A stretch of 64,000 nt of DNA from Shigella phage Z31: the sequence record MN655999. One strand, written 5' to 3'. The notes under the pieces were generated by a model. It was not told the DNA's origin. It saw only the letters and a list, made by a program, of their open reading frames with translations, and made no database searches. The stretch's first letter is position 1. Each line of letters starts with the position of its first letter. The position numbers were made by a program, and so were the translations under genes. Of the stretch, positions 1-6,475 are shown piece by piece.

Positions 1-600
1 TAAGGCTCTTCCTAGTAATTACACCCCAACTATGTAGAAAGCTCTTTATAGGGCTTTACAGGGGCTTTAAAGGCTATGCTAAAGACTCTTACAAGGCTTT
101 TACATGGTTTTAACAGAGATTTAACAAGGGGCTAACAAGTTGCTAACAAGTGCCTTAAAAGCATAACTATGTAGGGTTTGTTAAGAAATTGTTAAGAAAA
201 TGTTAAGGGGGCTAGCATTTACGTAACTTTATAGCCCCTATAACATACTTTTTAGTAACTAACAAGCTCCTTTTTAGTAGTTCACAAGATAGCTAACGAG
301 ATAATAAAGCTCATAACCTTATAAGATTCTTTTAAGCCTCTATAAAGCCCTGTAAAGAGCTTTTTAAGGTGAGTTAATGCAATCCCTTAAGTTAGGTTGA
401 TAAGGCTGTTATAGAGCTTTATAGAGCGTTTAAACGGTTGCCCTTCCCTTTCGGGTTATGGGCTTATATTTAAGTTGATTTGATAAAAGGTTATAGAGTA
501 AGCTATAGAGTTATTGCTTTTAAGGTCTAGTAAGATTCTGGAAAGGGCAGGGAAAGGGAAAGGGTTGTATAGGATTCAATAAGATGTAAAAAAGCCCCTA
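1..600. repeat. ORF-free repeat-rich region (short direct repeats GCTAACAAG, GTTAAGAAA, TATAGAG, GAAAGGG)
   Basis: No ORF of 60 aa or more on either strand; multiple short direct repeats visible by eye. Confidence 0.5.
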
Positions 601-660
601 TGAAAAGGAGCTTTGAAGGTATCTGGGGCTATTTAGCCCCGTTGATTAGTAATTTACAGA
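600..660 (-). promoter_or_regulatory. A-type-like element variant: hairpin GGGGCTATTTAGCCCC followed by GTTGATTAGTAATTTAC, pointing into ORF-free region
   Basis: Shares the GTTGATTAGTAATTTA box with the A-type cassettes; perfect 6-bp GC stem. Confidence 0.3.
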
Positions 661-1184
661 TTTTTGGTTGTCTCGTCAATATCTTTTTCAATATCTTTTA
701 AAGTTTTCTCTAAGTTCTTGATATTAAACGTTAAACCTTCACCGAGAGTTTTAGAGTAACCATTAGGACGTAAATCATAAAGCTCGATTTCTTCCACTAG
801 AGAAAGGTTAACAGTCCAGCCACCTATACCGTAGGCCATTGAAACGGTATTTACAGGGGCTTTATAGAACTTGTTCAAGGACTTGATAGAACGTTCATAA
901 GCCATTTTATAACCATTTAAAAGGTTTTTAACGTGTCTGTGAACGTTTTTACAATCATCTAAGTAAATCTCTAAGAATAGCGGTAATAACTCTACTACAG
1001 CTTGCATAAAGTGAGAGACTGCAACGGTTGCAGCATTACGACGATGAACGTAATAAGCCCCGTTTTCTGATTTGGTGATGGTTGCAAAATGTACCCTATT
1101 GCAACGAAATTCGTAGGTATCTTTGACAGGCTTTGACATTACAGCACTTGAGCGGATGTAATTGATGGCTTTGAACTTGTTCAC
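654..1184 (-). CDS. hypothetical early protein (176 aa), GTG start
   Basis: ORF track; RBS AGGAG about 8 nt upstream of GTG; preceded by A-type cassette. Confidence 0.5.
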   Translation of the reverse strand: MNKFKAINYIRSSAVMSKPVKDTYEFRCNRVHFATITKSENGAYYVHRRNAATVAVSHFMQAVVELLPLFLEIYLDDCKNVHRHVKNLLNGYKMAYERSIKSLNKFYKAPVNTVSMAYGIGGWTVNLSLVEEIELYDLRPNGYSKTLGEGLTFNIKNLEKTLKDIEKDIDETTKNL

Positions 1185-1185
1185 T

Positions 1186-1278
1186 TTGAATCTCCTAGTT
1201 TAAGGGCTTTTACTTAGTGGGGAAGGTCATTCCCTCCCCGTTGATTAGTAATTTACTTGTTTTGATATCTGATTGCAA
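1186..1278 (-). promoter_or_regulatory. A-type cassette: sigma70-like promoter (TTGCAA-17-TAAATT) + imperfect GC hairpin + shared RBS/start context
   Basis: -35 at 1273-1278, -10 at 1250-1255 (minus strand), hairpin GGGGAAGGTCATTCCCTCCCC, RBS then start. Confidence 0.4.
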
Positions 1279-1407
1279 GTAATTTTTTGAGCTTATCTAT
1301 AAAGAACCTTTTAAGTGAATCCCTTTAAGATAAACCCCCTCGAACAAAGTTACCAATGTCAATAGGTATTGTCAACACTTTTTTAAAAGTTTTTTGTAAG
1401 TTATTGA

Positions 1408-1749
1408 TTAACTGATGAATATTTTTTCAGGTTTTACGTAGCTGATACGCTGACTTTTTAGCAGGTCATCCCAGATTAACGCGGCGATATGGGTATAACC
1501 GGATTCACGTAACAACTTCATTGTTTTACATCTCGTTTCAAAACGGCTTGCATAGTACTCACTATTCAAAACAGTTTTATTCCCTTCGTTATCTGTATGG
1601 ATAATCTGCATGACTTGAAAGGGGCTGACATCCTCGCCTTTATTCCATTGCTCAAAGTATTTTAGGCACTGCATAGGTGACATCTTATCACTTACTTGAG
1701 TTGACCAAGATGAGCCAGCTTTATCAGTAATTACAGTTACGTGAGCCAT
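1408..1749 (-). CDS. hypothetical protein (113 aa)
   Basis: ORF track; ATG start with partial copy of the conserved start context. Confidence 0.5.
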   Translation of the reverse strand: MAHVTVITDKAGSSWSTQVSDKMSPMQCLKYFEQWNKGEDVSPFQVMQIIHTDNEGNKTVLNSEYYASRFETRCKTMKLLRESGYTHIAALIWDDLLKSQRISYVKPEKIFIS

Positions 1750-1796
1750 TTTCAGATTCTCCAGTTTAGGAAGTGAGATTGCTAGATACTTTATCT

Positions 1797-1943
1797 TTAC
1801 TTAAAACGGTTTACAATAGATTTTTTCTTTAAATGCAGTTTTTCTGCTTTTTTCATGGTTTTTACCAGTAACATCATGACAAATGAGAAAATCATCTCTG
1901 AGAATACAGGGTTGTTAAAAACTGTCTCAATAGTATGAGTCAT
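1797..1943 (-). CDS. small hydrophobic protein (48 aa), not in ORF track
   Basis: Hand-translated MTHTIETVFNNPVFSEMIFSFVMMLLVKTMKKAEKLHLKKKSIVNRFK; ATG preceded by conserved CTAAACTGGAGATTCAAAA context and B-type cassette. Confidence 0.4.
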   Translation of the reverse strand: MTHTIETVFNNPVFSEMIFSFVMMLLVKTMKKAEKLHLKKKSIVNRFK

Positions 1944-1945
1944 CT

Positions 1946-2015
1946 TTTTGAATCTCCAGTTTAGGAAAGCTCTTTATCTGGGGCTTAAGATATCAACTTT
2001 TAAGCCCCTTGTAAA
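1946..2015 (-). promoter_or_regulatory. B-type cassette (variant loop): TTTACA-17-TATCTT with 29-nt hairpin across spacer and -10
   Basis: Hairpin GGGGCTTAAGATATCAACTTTTAAGCCCC at 1980-2008; -35 rc at 2010-2015. Confidence 0.4.
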
Positions 2016-2020
2016 GTACT

Positions 2021-2269
2021 TTAAGCGTCTTTGTATTCGATTTCTATACACTCACCTTTTACTAGCTCAAAGGTCCAAATAATTCGTTTATACTCAATCA
2101 CTACTACAGTGACAAGGTTAGTTCTCTTCTCATTGGTTTTGAAGTCTATTGTGTGGGTATACTCATAACTAGCCTTATCCTTAATTTCCCCGTAGCGTCT
2201 ACACTCTTTATAGACTTCATCCATTAAGCCATTGCTAACCATGTTTTTTAGTTGAGTTTTAGTATACAT
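2021..2269 (-). CDS. hypothetical protein (82 aa)
   Basis: ORF track; conserved RBS GGAGG and ATG context. Confidence 0.55.
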   Translation of the reverse strand: MYTKTQLKNMVSNGLMDEVYKECRRYGEIKDKASYEYTHTIDFKTNEKRTNLVTVVVIEYKRIIWTFELVKGECIEIEYKDA

Positions 2270-5149: not shown

Positions 5150-5157
5150 GTACTCTA

Positions 5158-5448
5158 TTACTTAATTTTCAGCTTTGCATGACTTCTCATTGTGCGAATA
5201 GGTGACGTCATGGCGATGCGTCTGATATATGCCTTTTTAGTGTATACATTCGTTTTCCCGATAGTGTTTACACATGTAAAAAGGTTTATTGGTGAATTTT
5301 TTAAATTCATTTGTTTATCCGCCTTCACGTTCCACCTTACAGCAGTTTGTTTTCCGTTGTCAACCACTTTCCCGCCTAACTTTTTCGCGATGATGCGAGC
5401 GTCATCACGAGTTTTTGCAGGAATTACAACGTTTTTAATAATAGCCAT
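5158..5448 (-). CDS. hypothetical basic protein (96 aa)
   Basis: ORF track. Confidence 0.5.
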   Translation of the reverse strand: MAIIKNVVIPAKTRDDARIIAKKLGGKVVDNGKQTAVRWNVKADKQMNLKNSPINLFTCVNTIGKTNVYTKKAYIRRIAMTSPIRTMRSHAKLKIK

Positions 5449-5455
5449 TTTTGAA

Positions 5456-5528
5456 TCTCCAATTTAGGATTTAGTGGTAAAGCTCTTTATCTGGGGCTTA
5501 CTGTACAGCCTTATAAGCCCCTTGTAAA
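5456..5528 (-). promoter_or_regulatory. B-type cassette: TTTACA-17-TACAGT with hairpin
   Basis: Hairpin 5493-5521; -35 rc at 5523-5528. Confidence 0.4.
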
Positions 5529-5536
5529 GTACTTTA

Positions 5537-5917
5537 TCAGTTAATTTTGAAAATTGTCACATAGCCATCACTGCCGATTATTTGAGACACTCCAGCTTTT
5601 TCTACTTGATAGCCCATATTTTCAAGATGATAAACAGCATCATCATAACCATATGCGCCACCCTGATAACGTCTCTTATCGCATCTTATCAGGTTTTTAC
5701 CACGTCCTGCAAGTGCATTCAGTACAGCTTTTTCACTTGATAGCGTACCATCTAACATGGTTGCTGTGTAATGGTTGATTCTATTCCCGTTTACATCATA
5801 CTTAAAATTGAATGCGTGAACAACGATAATGTTACCTTTAAAATTTTCATCAAGTGACTTCTCCAGTGCGTTGCGAAAGTTGTCTTTGTTGATGAATTTA
5901 GGTGCACGATAAGCCAT
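5537..5917 (-). CDS. hypothetical protein (126 aa)
   Basis: ORF track. Confidence 0.55.
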   Translation of the reverse strand: MAYRAPKFINKDNFRNALEKSLDENFKGNIIVVHAFNFKYDVNGNRINHYTATMLDGTLSSEKAVLNALAGRGKNLIRCDKRRYQGGAYGYDDAVYHLENMGYQVEKAGVSQIIGSDGYVTIFKIN

Positions 5918-5924
5918 TTTTGAA

Positions 5925-5999
5925 TCTCCTAGTTTAAGGTTAATGTAGTAAAGCTCTTTATCTGGGGCTTACTTTATCGAACTATAAGCCCCTTGTAAA
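5925..5999 (-). promoter_or_regulatory. B-type cassette: TTTACA-17-TAAAGT with hairpin
   Basis: Hairpin 5964-5992; -35 rc at 5994-5999 directly after upstream stop. Confidence 0.45.
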
Positions 6000-6005
6000 G
6001 TACTT

Positions 6006-6212
6006 TTATCTATCGTAATAGTAAACCGCTGTCTGTTTTATATGTTGCTTTGTATTCTTCGTAAGGTAGCAATTAGAATTGATTGCCGTTTCTACATAGT
6101 TGCAATAATCAGCTTCTGATATTCTACGCCATGCGCCGCACACTTGCATGTAAAAACGTTTTACCTTTGTATTAACGTTGGTTGTAACCATCAATTCACG
6201 GCTGTAAATCAT
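6006..6212 (-). CDS. hypothetical protein (68 aa)
   Basis: ORF track; 4-nt overlap with next gene. Confidence 0.45.
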   Translation of the reverse strand: MIYSRELMVTTNVNTKVKRFYMQVCGAWRRISEADYCNYVETAINSNCYLTKNTKQHIKQTAVYYYDR

Positions 6213-6400
6213 TTTTTAGTGCTCCATTTTTCGAACAATTCAGCAGGGAAACGTTCGCTATATCCTTTTAGTGAAAATGTTCCATCTTCGTGGATAGCTT
6301 CCACCTGATAAACCTTGTAAGAGCGAATAGTTAACATTTTGTAAGAGTATTCATGTTTTACGTTAACCTCGTCGCCAACTTTGATTTTTCTTGATGCCAT
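6209..6400 (-). CDS. hypothetical protein (63 aa)
   Basis: ORF track; preceded by A-type cassette. Confidence 0.45.
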   Translation of the reverse strand: MASRKIKVGDEVNVKHEYSYKMLTIRSYKVYQVEAIHEDGTFSLKGYSERFPAELFEKWSTKK

Positions 6401-6475
6401 CTTTTGAATCTCCTAGTTTAAGGGTTTTACTTAGTGGGGAAGGTCATTCCCTCCCCGTTGATGCAAATACTAGAT
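6401..6475 (-). promoter_or_regulatory. A-type cassette variant: TTGACT-17-TAGTAT + hairpin + RBS
   Basis: Hairpin GGGGAAGGTCATTCCCTCCCC; -35 rc at 6470-6475. Confidence 0.35.

What the first reader, a model, noticed from the sequence alone, without database searches (positions are those of the whole stretch)
600..6420. Near-identical translation initiation region CTAAACTGGAGATTCAAAA-ATG reused by at least ten early genes
Seen: the ~20 nt preceding the start codons of the genes beginning at 1184, 1943, 2269, 3201, 3490, 3997, 4356, 5069, 5448, 5917 and 6400 are almost identical (variants CTAAATTGGAG, CTAGGAGATTCAAA). This indicates modular duplication of regulatory cassettes or strong selection for one initiation context.
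Basis: seen in the sequence. Interest (0 to 1): 0.45.

Follow-up and report, generated by a model that had tools for sequence, protein, structure and literature searches.

The report
Shuffling promoter–ribosome-site cassettes before early phage genes
Twelve small, unrelated early genes of this Felix O1-like phage each sit behind an almost identical ~23-base ribosome-binding leader, which is the tail end of ~90-base promoter/hairpin cassettes that recombine with one another and swap genes in and out, much like the "PeSL" cassettes already known from T4-like phages.

Summary
All genes lie on the minus strand. Twelve of the 15 genes in 654-6400 start behind CCTAAAYTGGAGATTCAAAA-ATG or CCTTAAACTAGGAGATTCAAAA-ATG, and the motif occurs nowhere else in the 64 kb. 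Similarity goes well beyond GGAG: the 8 nt 3' of GGAG are 86% identical pairwise, against 34% for other GGAG genes.

The motif is the 3' end of two cassette families:
- **Type A:** a TTTACA-17-TAnnnT promoter embedded in a ~60-nt hairpin.
- **Type B:** a TTGACA-17-TAAATT promoter followed by a hairpin at the predicted 5' end of the transcript.

The window is a Felixounavirus, and the cassettes occur across the four Ounavirinae genera sampled. The genes are unrelated ORFans. The same gene carries different cassette types in different phages. Several indel junctions overlap the leader by 22-26 nt. In 30 of 36 comparisons a leader resembles another leader in its own genome more than its orthologue in another genus.

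Best explanation: PeSL-like mobile regulatory cassettes giving standardised early expression plus homology for modular shuffling. This is a new member of a known kind, of moderate interest. Promoter activity, hairpin function and recombination are inferred, not shown.

The parts
6398..6423 (-). Leader (TIR) CCTTAAACTAGGAGATTCAAAAG-ATG of the 63-aa gene (6209-6400)
6436..6495 (-). Type B cassette 1. -35 TTGACT at 6490-6495, -10 TAGTAT at 6467-6472, 5' hairpin GGGGAGGGAATGACCTTCCCC at 6436-6456.
5915..5939 (-). Leader CCTTAAACTAGGAGATTCAAAA-ATG of the 126-aa gene (5537-5917)
5949..6007 (-). Type A cassette. Long hairpin with -35 TTTACA at 5994-5999 and -10 TAAAGT at 5971-5976 in the loop. Upper stem-loop at 5964-5992.
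5446..5468 (-). Leader CCTAAATTGGAGATTCAAAA-ATG of the 96-aa gene (5158-5448)
5478..5536 (-). Type A cassette. Long hairpin, -35 at 5523-5528, -10 TACAGT at 5500-5505.
5067..5091 (-). Leader CCTTAAACTAGGAGACTCAAAA-ATG of the 98-aa gene (4773-5069). The overlapping 110-aa gene (4447-4779) has no leader of its own.
5100..5157 (-). Type A cassette, stem variant GGGGTTATC/GATAGCCCC. -35 TTTACA at 5144-5149, -10 TAAGAT at 5121-5126.
4354..4378 (-). Leader CCTTAAACTAGGAGATTCTAAA-ATG of the 90-aa gene (4084-4356)
4391..4450 (-). Type B cassette. -35 TTGACA at 4445-4450, -10 TAAATT at 4422-4427, 5' hairpin at 4391-4411.
3995..4017 (-). Leader CCTAAATTGGAGATTCAAAA-ATG of the 134-aa gene (3593-3997)
4028..4086 (-). 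Type A cassette. Long hairpin, -35 at 4073-4078, -10 TAAAGT at 4050-4055.
3488..3510 (-). Leader CCTAAACTGGAGATTCAAAA-ATG of the 67-aa gene (3287-3490)
3523..3582 (-). Type B cassette. -35 TTGACA at 3577-3582, -10 TAAATT at 3554-3559, 5' hairpin at 3523-3543. Predicted transcription start about 3546-3547.
3199..3221 (-). Leader CCTAAACTGGAGATTCAAAA-ATG of the 180-aa gene (2659-3201)
3231..3289 (-). Type A cassette. Long hairpin, -35 at 3276-3281, -10 TAAAGT at 3253-3258. Predicted transcription start about 3245. The TAA stop of the upstream gene lies in the left box.
2267..2289 (-). Leader CCTAAACTGGAGGTTCAAAA-ATG of the 82-aa gene (2021-2269)
2302..2361 (-). Type B cassette. -35 TAGACA at 2356-2361, -10 TAAATT at 2333-2338, 5' hairpin at 2302-2322.
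1941..1965 (-). Leader CCTAAACTGGAGATTCAAAAAG-ATG of the 48-aa gene (1797-1943)
1965..2023 (-). Type A cassette. Long hairpin, -35 at 2010-2015, -10 TATCTT at 1987-1992.
1747..1816 (-). Third promoter type, TTGTAA (1811-1816)-17-TAAAGT (1788-1793), without a hairpin. It carries the same leader CCTAAACTGGAGAATCTGAAA-ATG (1747-1770) before the 113-aa gene (1408-1749).
1182..1205 (-). Leader CCTTAAACTAGGAGATTCAAA-GTG of the 176-aa gene (654-1184)
1219..1278 (-). Type B cassette. -35 TTGCAA at 1273-1278, -10 TAAATT at 1250-1255, 5' hairpin at 1219-1239.
625..679 (-). Orphan type B promoter, TTGACG (674-679)-17-TAAATT (651-656)-ACTAATCAAC, with no gene behind it. It is fused at GGGG (637-644) to the hairpin GGGGCTAAATAGCCCC. 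wV8 and TP15 have two more genes here (87 aa and 74/82 aa).
6853..6894 (-). Intrinsic terminator closing the upstream operon (equivalent to Felix O1 t13). It marks the upstream limit of the cassette array.

Best explanation
The window comes from a Felix O1-like myovirus (Felixounavirus). Positions about 600-6500 (minus strand) hold an array of small ORFan genes. Nearly every gene carries its own ~90-105-nt regulatory cassette, and the repeated 'translation initiation region' is the 3' module of those cassettes.

**Type A cassettes (6 copies).** These hold a host sigma-70-type promoter, TTTACA-17-TAnnnT. The promoter is embedded in a ~60-nt imperfect palindrome. In read-through sense RNA this folds as:
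- a lower stem, UAAAGUACUUUA / UAAAGAGCUUUA
- a 3x3 internal loop
- a 9-bp upper stem, GGGGCUUAN / NUAAGCCCC
- a 10-11-nt loop that contains the -10 element

**Type B cassettes (5 copies plus one orphan).** These hold TTGACA-17-TAAATT, followed 3-4 nt after the predicted transcription start by an 8-bp GC-rich hairpin.

**Shared leader.** Both types, and a third promoter type at 1749, end in the same leader: CCU(U)AAACU(A)GGAG, an 8-nt A/U-rich spacer AUUCAAAA, then AUG.

**Proposed working (inferred).**
1. Host RNA polymerase fires at each cassette early in infection.
2. The standard, weakly structured leader has a 4-5-nt SD at 8-nt spacing. It gives any downstream ORF, whatever its sequence, a uniform and efficient start.
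3. The type B hairpin stabilises the 5' end of the mRNA. The type A long hairpin insulates units from upstream read-through, by attenuation, RNase III-type processing or 3'-end protection.
4. Because the cassettes are repeated in direct orientation, homologous recombination between them deletes, duplicates, inserts and relocates gene-plus-cassette units. It also homogenises the copies (concerted evolution). This is why the leader is near-identical within a genome.

The system is an analogue, in another phage subfamily, of the PeSL 'mobile regulatory cassettes' of T4-like phages.
For: **Identity of the window.** The cluster is 87-90% identical to Felixounavirus genomes.

**Leader.** Twelve of 15 genes carry it. 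It is unique to this cluster within the 64 kb, and it is conserved far beyond GGAG.

**Promoters.**
- Minus-strand sigma-70 matches with 17-nt spacing were found at the cassettes.
- In 22 distinct type A copies from five phages, TTTACA is invariant.
- Within the otherwise variable hairpin loop, only T31, A32 and T36 are invariant. These are the T-12, A-11 and T-7 positions of a -10 hexamer placed 17 nt from the -35.

**Type A hairpin.**
- It is the predicted MFE structure in all six window copies, at -19.7 to -25.1 kcal/mol with z-scores of -3.6 to -6.6.
- 97.1% of cells are paired, against 33-59% when partners are slid.
- Compensatory changes occur at columns 4-54, 17-41 and 23-35.
- In the lower stem, 6 of 8 copies with the C-to-A change in the right box carry the matching G-to-T change in the left box.
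- G.U pairs form only on the sense strand.

**Type B hairpin.** It is predicted in every copy 3 nt from the predicted 5' end. In relatives, different hairpin sequences occupy the same position.

**Leader accessibility.** The -18..+12 region is less structured than in 53 other genes of the window: 0.61 against 0.52 unpaired (p=0.002), and MFE -9.1 against -13.4 kcal/mol.

**The genes.** They are unrelated to each other, with no Pfam hit and only PHROGs of unknown function.

**Distribution.**
- Both leader variants occur in every Felixounavirus checked.
- Only CCTAAACTGGAG occurs in Mooglevirus (18 copies) and Suspvirus (13 copies).
- The Erwinia phage phiEa104 has a cognate, CCTTAnAnAGGAATCAAAA.

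**Shuffling.**
- The same gene family sits behind different cassette types in different phages.
- Gene S occupies a different slot in this window than in Michonne.
- Michonne has a tandem D85-D85 duplication.
- Indel junctions against TP15, wV8, Mushroom and Felix O1 overlap the leader by 22-26 nt or a whole cassette by 91-96 nt.

**Conservation and homogenisation.**
- Between genera, cassettes are 85-87% and leaders 89-92% identical, against 75-77% for the coding sequences they flank.
- A leader is closer to a paralogue in its own genome than to its orthologue in 30 of 36 cases.

**Precedent.** The PeSL papers describe the same architecture and experimentally showed promoter activity, terminator activity and mini-circle formation (PMC2839356, PMC4122927).

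**Timing.** Felix O1 RT-PCR gave ORFs 16, 20, 21 and 22 maximal at 5 min.
Against: - No transcription start, RNA end or recombination product has been measured for any Ounavirinae phage in the literature I could search.
- The cassette hairpins lack a U tract, and the terminator scan did not call them. PeSL-style termination is therefore doubtful here.
- Felix O1 RT-PCR placed ORFs 14, 17, 19 and 23 at 25 min rather than 5 min.
- Breakpoints at gene boundaries are partly expected from selection alone, whatever the mechanism.
- The covariation rests on few independent events, because copies are related by homogenisation.
- The SD is only GGAG or AGGAG, so 'strong' translation is an inference.
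- The conserved CCUAAAC 5' of the SD is not explained by anti-SD pairing.
Confidence: 0.75

Rival explanations
1. The invariant leader is mainly a recognition handle for a post-transcriptional regulator. This could be a T4 RegB-like endoribonuclease that cuts GGAG in early Shine-Dalgarno sites, or a RegA-like translational repressor. One factor could then shut off the whole early class together. This could act in addition to the cassette function.
For: - CCUAAAC(U) 5' of GGAG is invariant in 17 of 17 Michonne leaders and in all SUSP2 leaders, yet it cannot pair with the 16S 3' end (direct reading).
- The motif is confined to one temporal or functional gene class.
- T4 precedent from established knowledge: RegB cleaves GGAG in early SDs, and RegA binds many early initiation regions.
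Against: - No RegA or RegB homologue was looked for or found here.
- Concerted evolution and junction overlaps explain near-identity without any binding factor.
- The spacer differs by genus (AUUCAAAA, AAUCUAAA, AAUCAAAA) and the Erwinia phage SD is AGGAA. A strict recognition site is therefore not conserved across the subfamily.
Confidence: 0.15
2. The identity is due only to selection for one optimal translation-initiation context. Each leader is held independently, with no role for recombination among copies.
For: Leaders are less structured than other starts in the window. SD-to-AUG spacing is a uniform 8 nt with an A-rich spacer.
Against: - The two leader variants swap between orthologous positions in closely related phages.
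- Paralogues in one genome are closer than orthologues in 30 of 36 cases.
- Deletions join precisely within the leader.
- Similarity continues through about 70 nt of promoter and hairpin, and into the first codons of unrelated proteins.
Confidence: 0.07
3. The resemblance is just the generic Shine-Dalgarno GGAG plus AT-rich phage sequence, that is, chance.
For: The genome is AT-rich (about 39% GC according to the Felix O1 paper), and GGAG is a common SD core.
Against: - 0.00 and 0.04 matches are expected by chance, against 6 and 5 observed.
- Flank identity is 86% and 60%, against 34% and 36% in other GGAG starts.
Confidence: 0.01
4. The repeats are left over from recent tandem duplication of one gene, so upstream regions are alike because the genes are paralogues.
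For: The units are tandem and direct. One true tandem duplication exists in Michonne, D85-D85.
Against: All twelve window genes behind the leader fall in different protein families by all-against-all BLASTP and in different PHROGs.
Confidence: 0.01
5. The type A palindrome works at the DNA level, not as RNA. Either the two 12-bp boxes TAAAGTACTTTA and TAAAGAGCTTTA are operators for a dimeric repressor that shuts off early promoters, or the element acts as a cruciform.
For: - TAAAGNNCTTTA occurs exactly 11 times in the window, all in type A cassettes, flanking the -35 and the +1.
- One-mismatch copies recur in the non-coding region 1-600.
- AGATAAAGAGCTTT is the best-conserved block, even in Erwinia phages.
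Against: - Where a box changes, it loses its own internal symmetry but keeps complementarity to the other box: left G-to-T with right C-to-A in 6 of 8 copies.
- The conserved U.G pairs are tolerated only in sense-strand RNA.
Confidence: 0.15

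Closest known systems
PeSLs (promoter-early stem-loops), the 'mobile regulatory cassettes' of T4-like phages RB49/phi1, PST and nt-1 (Arbiol et al. 2010, PMC2839356; Comeau et al. 2014, PMC4122927)
   Same: - About 100-bp composite intergenic elements.
- The stop codon of the upstream gene lies in AT-rich sequence.
- A sigma-70-like -35/-10 promoter.
- A GGGG...CCCC stem-loop between -35 and -10, overlapping the -10, or just downstream of it.
- SD and ATG at the 3' end.
- Clustered before ORFans in a hyperplastic region.
- Indels and replacements between close relatives are bounded by the elements, with crossovers mapped between the -10 and the ATG.
   Different: - No sequence homology, and a different phage subfamily (Ounavirinae).
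- The leader is far more uniform, at about 23 nt near-identical.
- Type A adds a 10-12-bp lower stem, so the whole promoter sits in a ~60-nt hairpin.
- The stem-loops lack U tracts.
- Promoter activity, terminator activity and mini-circles have not been demonstrated here.
Host-takeover module of Bacillus phage SPO1: 24 small early genes in 12 operons behind repeated strong early promoters with unusually strong SDs (Stewart et al. 1998; from my own knowledge, paper not read here)
   Same: An array of small early ORFans near a genome end. Each gene or pair has a host-polymerase promoter and a stereotyped ribosome-binding site.
   Different: Gram-positive host. I know of no reported hairpin-embedded promoters or cassette shuffling there.
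RNase III processing sites between phage T7 early genes (R0.3 to R1.3; Dunn and Studier; established knowledge)
   Same: Intergenic hairpins of about 50-60 nt in early polycistronic RNA, with an upper stem, an internal loop and a lower stem totalling about 20 bp. This matches the type A fold.
   Different: T7 sites do not contain promoters. Cleavage of the Felix O1-type hairpins is untested.
5'-terminal stabiliser hairpins such as the E. coli ompA leader (Emory, Bouvet and Belasco 1992; established knowledge)
   Same: The type B hairpin starts about 3 nt from the predicted 5' end. In that position a stem-loop protects against 5'-end-dependent RNase E attack.
   Different: The transcription start here is only predicted, and no half-life data exist.
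Integron gene-cassette arrays
   Same: Promoter-less or self-contained small genes arranged head-to-tail between conserved linkers, with cassette gain, loss and reordering.
   Different: No integrase and no attC-type recombination site. Exchange here would be by general homologous or microhomology recombination. Each unit carries its own promoter.

Membership tests
PeSL-type mobile regulatory cassette (a class defined by architecture, not homology) | Sigma-70-like -35 and -10 hexamers at about 17-nt spacing in the intergenic element | tested here: met
   Consensus scan hits at the cassettes. TTTACA is invariant, and only T, A and T of the -10 are invariant inside the variable loop. This is sequence evidence only, with no activity assay.
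PeSL-type mobile regulatory cassette (a class defined by architecture, not homology) | G-run/C-run stem-loop between -35 and -10, overlapping the -10, or just downstream of the -10 | tested here: met
   The type A stem GGGGCTTA/TAAGCCCC encloses the -10. The type B hairpin lies just after the -10.
PeSL-type mobile regulatory cassette (a class defined by architecture, not homology) | Upstream gene's stop codon at the 5' edge, with SD and start codon of the next gene at the 3' edge | tested here: met
   The TAA stop lies in the left box TAAAGTACTTTA (for example 3287-3289). The leader plus ATG closes each cassette.
PeSL-type mobile regulatory cassette (a class defined by architecture, not homology) | Concentrated in a hyperplastic region in front of ORFans | tested here: met
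   All copies lie in 600-6500. The proteins have no Pfam hit and only PHROGs of unknown function. Gene content differs in every relative compared.
PeSL-type mobile regulatory cassette (a class defined by architecture, not homology) | Insertions, deletions and replacements between close relatives are bounded by the elements | tested here: met
   Junction overlaps of 22-26 nt (leader) or 91-96 nt (whole cassette) against TP15, wV8, Mushroom, Felix O1, SflM004, SUSP2 and Michonne. Gene and cassette reassortment is seen.
PeSL-type mobile regulatory cassette (a class defined by architecture, not homology) | Demonstrated promoter activity, terminator or attenuator activity, and formation of circular recombination products | not testable with these tools
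   Needs reporter assays and inverse PCR on infected cells.
Rho-independent (intrinsic) terminator | GC-rich stem-loop immediately followed by a U tract | tested here: not met
   The scan of 1-7500 called only 6853-6894(-) and one plus-strand site, and no cassette hairpin. After the stems the sense strand reads AGAUAAAGAG (type A) or ACUAAGUAAA (type B).
RNase III processing site (T7 early-region type) | About 20 bp of interrupted double helix with an internal loop in the transcript | tested here: met
   Predicted fold of 10-16 bp lower stem, 3x3 loop and 9 bp upper stem in all six copies, with covariation support.
RNase III processing site (T7 early-region type) | Cleavage by RNase III in vivo or in vitro | not testable with these tools
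   Would need a comparison of rnc mutant and wild-type RNA ends.
Any curated RNA family (Rfam 15) | Match at or above the gathering score | tested here: not met
   Only sub-threshold chance hits, mir-980 at 22 bits against a gathering score of 47.
Integron cassette array | Tyrosine-recombinase integrase and attC sites | tested here: not met
   No Pfam domain in the 10 of the 15 cluster proteins that were scanned. The linkers are promoters and leaders, not attC.
T4 RegB / RegA regulon | Phage-encoded RegB endoribonuclease or RegA repressor acting on early initiation regions | not tested
   The other ~80 ORFs of the window were not screened for homologues.

The most novel reading that the evidence does not exclude
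The Ounavirinae early array may be an integrase-free gene-cassette platform with three coupled functions:
1. Each ORFan is made an insulated expression unit by a promoter buried inside an RNase III-type processing hairpin (type A) or followed by a 5' stabiliser hairpin (type B).
2. The invariant CCUAAACU-GGAG-AUUCAAAA leader is both a universal 'adaptor' for recombination and a recognition element for a factor that switches the whole class off together.
3. The CCU triplet pairs weakly with the SD, and the U...A double insertion in the second variant keeps that pairing, so a small regulatory SD-sequestering hairpin is also possible.
Probability: 0.15. Interest if true: 0.6.

Novelty: new member of a known kind. 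Interest (0 to 1): 0.4.

Why it matters
- **Explains an unexplained annotation.** The Felix O1 genome paper and the wV8 GenBank record list 'direct repeats' without interpretation. The Felix O1 authors also stated that early promoters and temporal control were not understood. This reading accounts for both.
- **Extends the PeSL idea.** Composite promoter/stem-loop/RBS cassettes that express and also mobilise ORFans were known from T4-like phages. Finding them in an unrelated myovirus subfamily suggests a convergent, general way for large lytic phages to trial new host-takeover genes.
- **Practical use.** The cassettes predict the early promoters of a phage group widely used for Salmonella and E. 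coli biocontrol and typing. They offer a natural standard expression adaptor for engineering these phages. They also mark the most plastic part of the genome.

Tried and rejected
- **Generic SD or chance.** Rejected by shuffles and by comparison with other starts.
- **Paralogous genes.** Rejected, since all-against-all BLASTP puts each gene in its own family.
- **Cassette hairpins as canonical intrinsic terminators.** Rejected, as there is no U tract and the scan did not call them.
- **Known RNA family.** Rfam gave nothing above threshold.
- **Protein function of the cluster genes.** Pfam found nothing in the 10 proteins scanned, and PHROGs (a different set of 10) gave only unknown-function families. 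Three cluster proteins (63, 68 and 67 aa) were not scanned against Pfam, and the 48-aa protein was scanned against neither library.
- **The two 12-bp boxes as self-palindromic operators.** Less favoured, because changes preserve pairing between the boxes rather than symmetry within a box.
- **Literature.** I found no paper linking PeSLs to Felix O1-like phages, and no transcriptome or start-site map for them. The wV8 paper text mentions no repeats or promoters.
- **Technical.** Loci fetched in parallel (L003, L004, L007-L011) never reached the Python sandbox and were refetched one at a time (L005, L012-L015).
- **Alignment caveat.** The MAFFT alignment A3 puts the one-base gap of the GGGGTTATC variants in the stem. 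Pairs 21-37, 22-36 and 23-35 are therefore undercounted. RNAfold on each copy shows these stems are intact.
- **Not done.** I did not build a covariance model or scan IMG/VR or metagenomes. The INPHARED searches already showed the cassettes are confined to Ounavirinae records, plus a few oddly named ones.

Full report
**1. What is there**

All ORFs of interest lie on the minus strand. Each is preceded by CCTAAAYTGGAG(A/G)TTCAAAA or CCTTAAACTAGGAGAYTCWAAA. A twelfth gene (start 1749) carries CCTAAACTGGAGAATCTGAAA.

Three genes in the cluster lack the motif. Two (6212 and 4779) overlap the gene before them. The third (2592) follows a short hairpin and has its own AGGAGG.

The 22-mer with up to 3 mismatches occurs 6 times and the TAGGAG variant 5 times. 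Chance would give 0.00 and 0.04. All copies lie in 1188-6420. A crude gene call over the whole window showed no other start with this context.

**2. The similarity is not just the Shine-Dalgarno core**

I anchored the sequences on GGAG and compared flanks.

| Region | Cluster genes | 14 other GGAG starts |
|---|---|---|
| 8 nt 3' of GGAG, mean pairwise identity | 86% | 34% |
| 8 nt 5' of GGAG, mean pairwise identity | 60% (two nearly invariant sub-variants) | 36% |

The SD itself is only GGAG or AGGAG with an 8-nt spacer. The conserved CCUAAAC cannot pair with the 16S 3' end (direct reading).

**3. The motif is the tail of longer repeats**

Repeat finding and alignment gave two families of about 90-105 nt.

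Type A has 6 copies, before starts 1943, 3201, 3997, 5069, 5448 and 5917. Its core reads AAAGTACTTTACA-N-GGGGCTTA-loop-TAAGCCCC-AGATAAAGAGCTTTAC, followed by a short variable stretch and then the leader.

Type B has 5 copies, before starts 1184, 2269, 3490, 4356 and 6400, plus an orphan at 625-679. It reads TTGACA-17-TAAATT-ACTAATCAAC-GGGGAGGnAATGACCTTCCCC-ACTAAGTAAA, then the leader.

The gene at 1749 has a third promoter type (TTGTAA-17-TAAAGT) with no hairpin but the same leader. The leader is therefore a module in its own right.

**4. Promoters**

The consensus scan finds minus-strand sigma-70-like sites with 17-nt spacing at the cassettes. More telling is the alignment of 22 distinct type A copies from five phages. 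TTTACA is invariant. Inside the otherwise variable hairpin loop, only three columns are invariant: T31, A32 and T36. These are the T-12, A-11 and T-7 of a -10 hexamer lying 17 nt from the -35.

This is strong sequence evidence, but not proof, that host RNA polymerase starts at each cassette. The predicted starts are about 3245 for the type A cassette before 3201, and about 3546 for the type B cassette before 3490.

**5. Hairpins**

Type A is a ~60-nt imperfect palindrome. Folded as sense RNA, all six copies give the same minimum-energy structure:
- a lower stem of 10-16 bp, UAAAGUACUUUA pairing with UAAAGAGCUUUA
- a 3x3 internal loop
- a 9-bp upper stem
- a 10-11-nt loop

The energies are -19.7 to -25.1 kcal/mol, with z-scores of -3.6 to -6.6.

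On alignment A3, 97.1% of cells are paired, against 33-59% when partners are slid. Changes on both sides occur at columns 4-54 (GC to UA), 17-41 (GC to UA, Erwinia phage) and 23-35. Across nine genomes, 6 of 8 copies with the right-box C-to-A change also have the left-box G-to-T change. Such changes break each box's own symmetry but keep pairing between the boxes.

The conserved U.G pairs exist only on the sense strand. In stem variants with U.G, the sense fold is 2-4.7 kcal/mol better than the antisense fold. This favours an RNA role in read-through transcripts over a protein operator or cruciform. The independent events are few, however.

The hairpins have no U tract, and the terminator scan did not call them. 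I therefore regard PeSL-style termination as unproven here. I rank attenuation, RNase III-type processing (by analogy with T7 early RNA) and 3'-end protection as open alternatives.

The type B hairpin begins about 3 nt after the predicted start. In that position a stem-loop is known to protect E. coli mRNAs from 5'-end-dependent decay. In relatives, different hairpin sequences occupy the same place, which argues for a structural role.

**6. Where it comes from**

The region is 87-90% identical to Felixounavirus genomes such as the O157 typing phages, wV8 and Mushroom.

- Type A cassettes are found through the subfamily Ounavirinae, including Mooglevirus, Suspvirus and the Erwinia Kolesnikvirus phages.
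- Type B is found in all of these except the Erwinia phages.
- Every Felixounavirus checked has both leader variants, 4-7 copies each.
- Michonne and SUSP2 have only CCTAAACTGGAG, with 18 and 13 copies.
- phiEa104 has a cognate leader, CCTTAnAnAGGAATCAAAA, behind homologous promoters and hairpins.

The leader is therefore an old, homologous module rather than a local accident.

**7. The genes and their shuffling**

The cluster proteins scanned have no Pfam hit (10 proteins) and only unknown-function PHROGs (a different set of 10), and none of the cluster proteins are related to one another.

A family map across nine phages shows a conserved backbone with variable slots:
- Gene J126 sits behind type A in five phages and type B in two.
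- K113 sits behind A, B or the third promoter type.
- P82 sits behind A, B or another type.
- Gene S is first in the array here, but lies between H and K in Michonne.
- Michonne has a tandem D85-D85 duplication, with a TIR-ATG fused directly to the next cassette.

BLAST chaining located the junctions:
- The 48-aa gene is absent from TP15 and wV8, with a 22-nt overlap that is exactly the leader.
- The 82-aa and 48-aa genes are absent from Mushroom, with the same kind of joint.
- The 63-aa and 68-aa genes are absent from wV8, with a 25-nt overlap.
- Felix O1 lacks 1.7 kb, with a 26-nt overlap.
- A 170-aa gene present in Mushroom, SUSP2 and Michonne is flanked by a duplicated whole cassette of 91-96 nt.

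HSP ends cluster at +0 to +17, -19 to -22, about -51 to -54 and -80 to -90 relative to leader ATGs. Part of this is expected from gene boundaries alone, but the precise overlaps are the footprint of recombination between repeats.

The orphan promoter at 625-679 is a deletion scar joined at GGGG. It removed the two genes present in wV8 and TP15.

**8. Conservation and homogenisation**

Between genera, identity rises from the coding sequences to the cassettes to the leaders.

| Region compared (window vs SUSP2 / Michonne) | Identity |
|---|---|
| Coding sequences | 75-77% |
| Cassettes | 85-87% |
| Leaders | 89-92% |

In 30 of 36 comparisons, a leader (-45..-1) is more like the leader of an unrelated gene in its own genome than the leader of the same gene in another genus. 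This is concerted evolution. It explains why copies within one genome are near-identical while genera differ in the spacer: AUUCAAAA here and in SUSP2, AAUCUAAA in Michonne, AAUCAAAA in phiEa104.

**9. Function of the leader**

Predicted folding shows the -18..+12 region is more open than in 53 other genes of the window: 0.61 against 0.52 unpaired (p=0.002), and MFE -9.1 against -13.4 kcal/mol. The twelve copies are not independent, so this test is indicative only.

I infer two roles for the leader. It is a portable, context-independent initiation region, and it is also a homology arm for recombination. A further role as a target of a regulator (RegB- or RegA-like) cannot be excluded and was not tested.

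**10. Comparison with what is known**

The closest known system is the PeSL of T4-like phages. Its published description matches point by point:
- stop codon in AT-rich sequence
- sigma-70 promoter
- GGGG...CCCC stem-loop between the hexamers, over the -10, or after it
- SD and ATG at the 3' end
- location before ORFans in hyperplastic regions
- crossovers between the -10 and the ATG

Differences here are the lack of sequence homology, the much more uniform leader, the extra lower stem that buries the whole promoter, the lack of U tracts, and the absence of experiments.

The Felix O1 genome paper listed the 57-bp and 39-bp cores as 'direct repeats' and stated that promoters and temporal control were not understood. 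The wV8 record annotates them as DR_1 to DR_9. I found no paper connecting them to PeSLs, and no start-site map.

Felix O1 RT-PCR gives partial support for early expression. ORFs 13, 16, 20, 21 and 22 peaked at 5 min, and ORFs 14, 17, 19 and 23 at 25 min.

**11. Verdict**

The thing is a PeSL-like array of mobile regulatory cassettes in Ounavirinae. It is a new member of a known kind and of moderate interest (0.4).

Shown by computation:
- the repeats and the promoter signatures
- the conserved hairpins
- gene and cassette reassortment
- junction overlaps
- concerted evolution

Inferred only:
- promoter activity
- the role of the hairpins
- translation efficiency
- recombination as the mechanism

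Noticed in passing
window 6655-6860 (non-coding, between the terminator at 6853-6894 and the first early promoter at 6467-6495): Four copies of a ~29-nt repeat, TACCTGCACA(A/G)TT(C/T)GAAAATGA, spaced 39-73 nt apart in a ~450-nt gene-poor stretch. The stretch is about 90% conserved in TP15, wV8 and Felix O1. It could be a regulator or replication-protein binding array.
   Followed up: partly
window 1-600: Non-coding region full of short repeats. It has a 38-nt inverted repeat at 35-72 / 329-366 (87% complementary) made of cassette-like words (AAAGCTCTTTAT, GGGGCTTTA), a tandem TTGTTAAGAAA, and one-mismatch copies of the TAAAGNNCTTTA box. In several related records the homologous stretch lies within about 1 kb of a record end and occurs twice. 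It probably overlaps or abuts the ~600-bp direct terminal repeat reported for UAB_Phi87 and Felix O1. The early array would then sit next to a physical genome end and be transcribed towards it.
   Followed up: partly
window 625-679: Orphan type B promoter with no gene. It is fused at GGGG to the hairpin GGGGCTAAATAGCCCC. wV8 and TP15 carry two further genes here (87 aa and 74/82 aa), so this window has a microhomology deletion scar.
   Followed up: yes
window starts 5448, 3490, 3997 and 4356, 2269: Unrelated proteins share their first codons. ATGGCTATTATT occurs at 5448 and 3490, ATGGCTATTAAT at 3997, and ATGTATACT at 4356 and 2269. Six of the 12 genes start ATG-GC(T/A). Either crossovers fall just inside the coding sequence (HSP ends at +2 to +17), or there is selection for favourable second codons.
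   Followed up: partly
window leaders, e.g. 3199-3221 and 5915-5939: In every predicted fold, the CCU or UCC 6 nt upstream pairs with the AGG or GGA of the SD, giving a 3-bp stem with hexaloop UAAACU. The second leader variant differs by a T...A double insertion that keeps this pairing. phiEa104 has CCUU...AAGG. The stem is too weak to be convincing on energy alone.
   Followed up: partly
L005 (Citrobacter phage Michonne); sense-strand positions about 3091-3870 of the reverse-complemented locus used: Tandem duplication of an 85-aa gene (gp101/gp102). Between the copies a leader-plus-ATG is fused directly to the -35 of the next cassette, giving a 9-aa 'empty' unit. This looks like an unequal-crossover product.
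   Followed up: partly
L010 (JLBYU28) and L011/L012 (vB_SflM_004) annotations: Small early ORFans homologous to window genes 4773-5069, 4447-4779 and 3287-3490 are annotated as 'tail sheath monomer', 'tail tube protein' and 'prohead assembly scaffold protein'. These labels look like propagated annotation errors. The proteins are 65-112 aa, have only unknown-function PHROG matches, and the two that were scanned (98 and 110 aa) have no Pfam hit.
   Followed up: no
window 2592-2640: The 77-aa gene (2359-2592) has no cassette. It follows a short hairpin AGCCCCUCACAGGGGCU plus UUU, annotated as a terminator in wV8, and has a strong AGGAGG SD. It is presumably expressed by read-through from the 180-aa gene.
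   Followed up: no
window 587-612: The sense strand reads GCUCC-UUUUCAUA-GGGGC followed by UUUUUU. By direct reading this is an intrinsic terminator closing the array (compare Felix O1 t23). The terminator scan did not list it.
   Followed up: no
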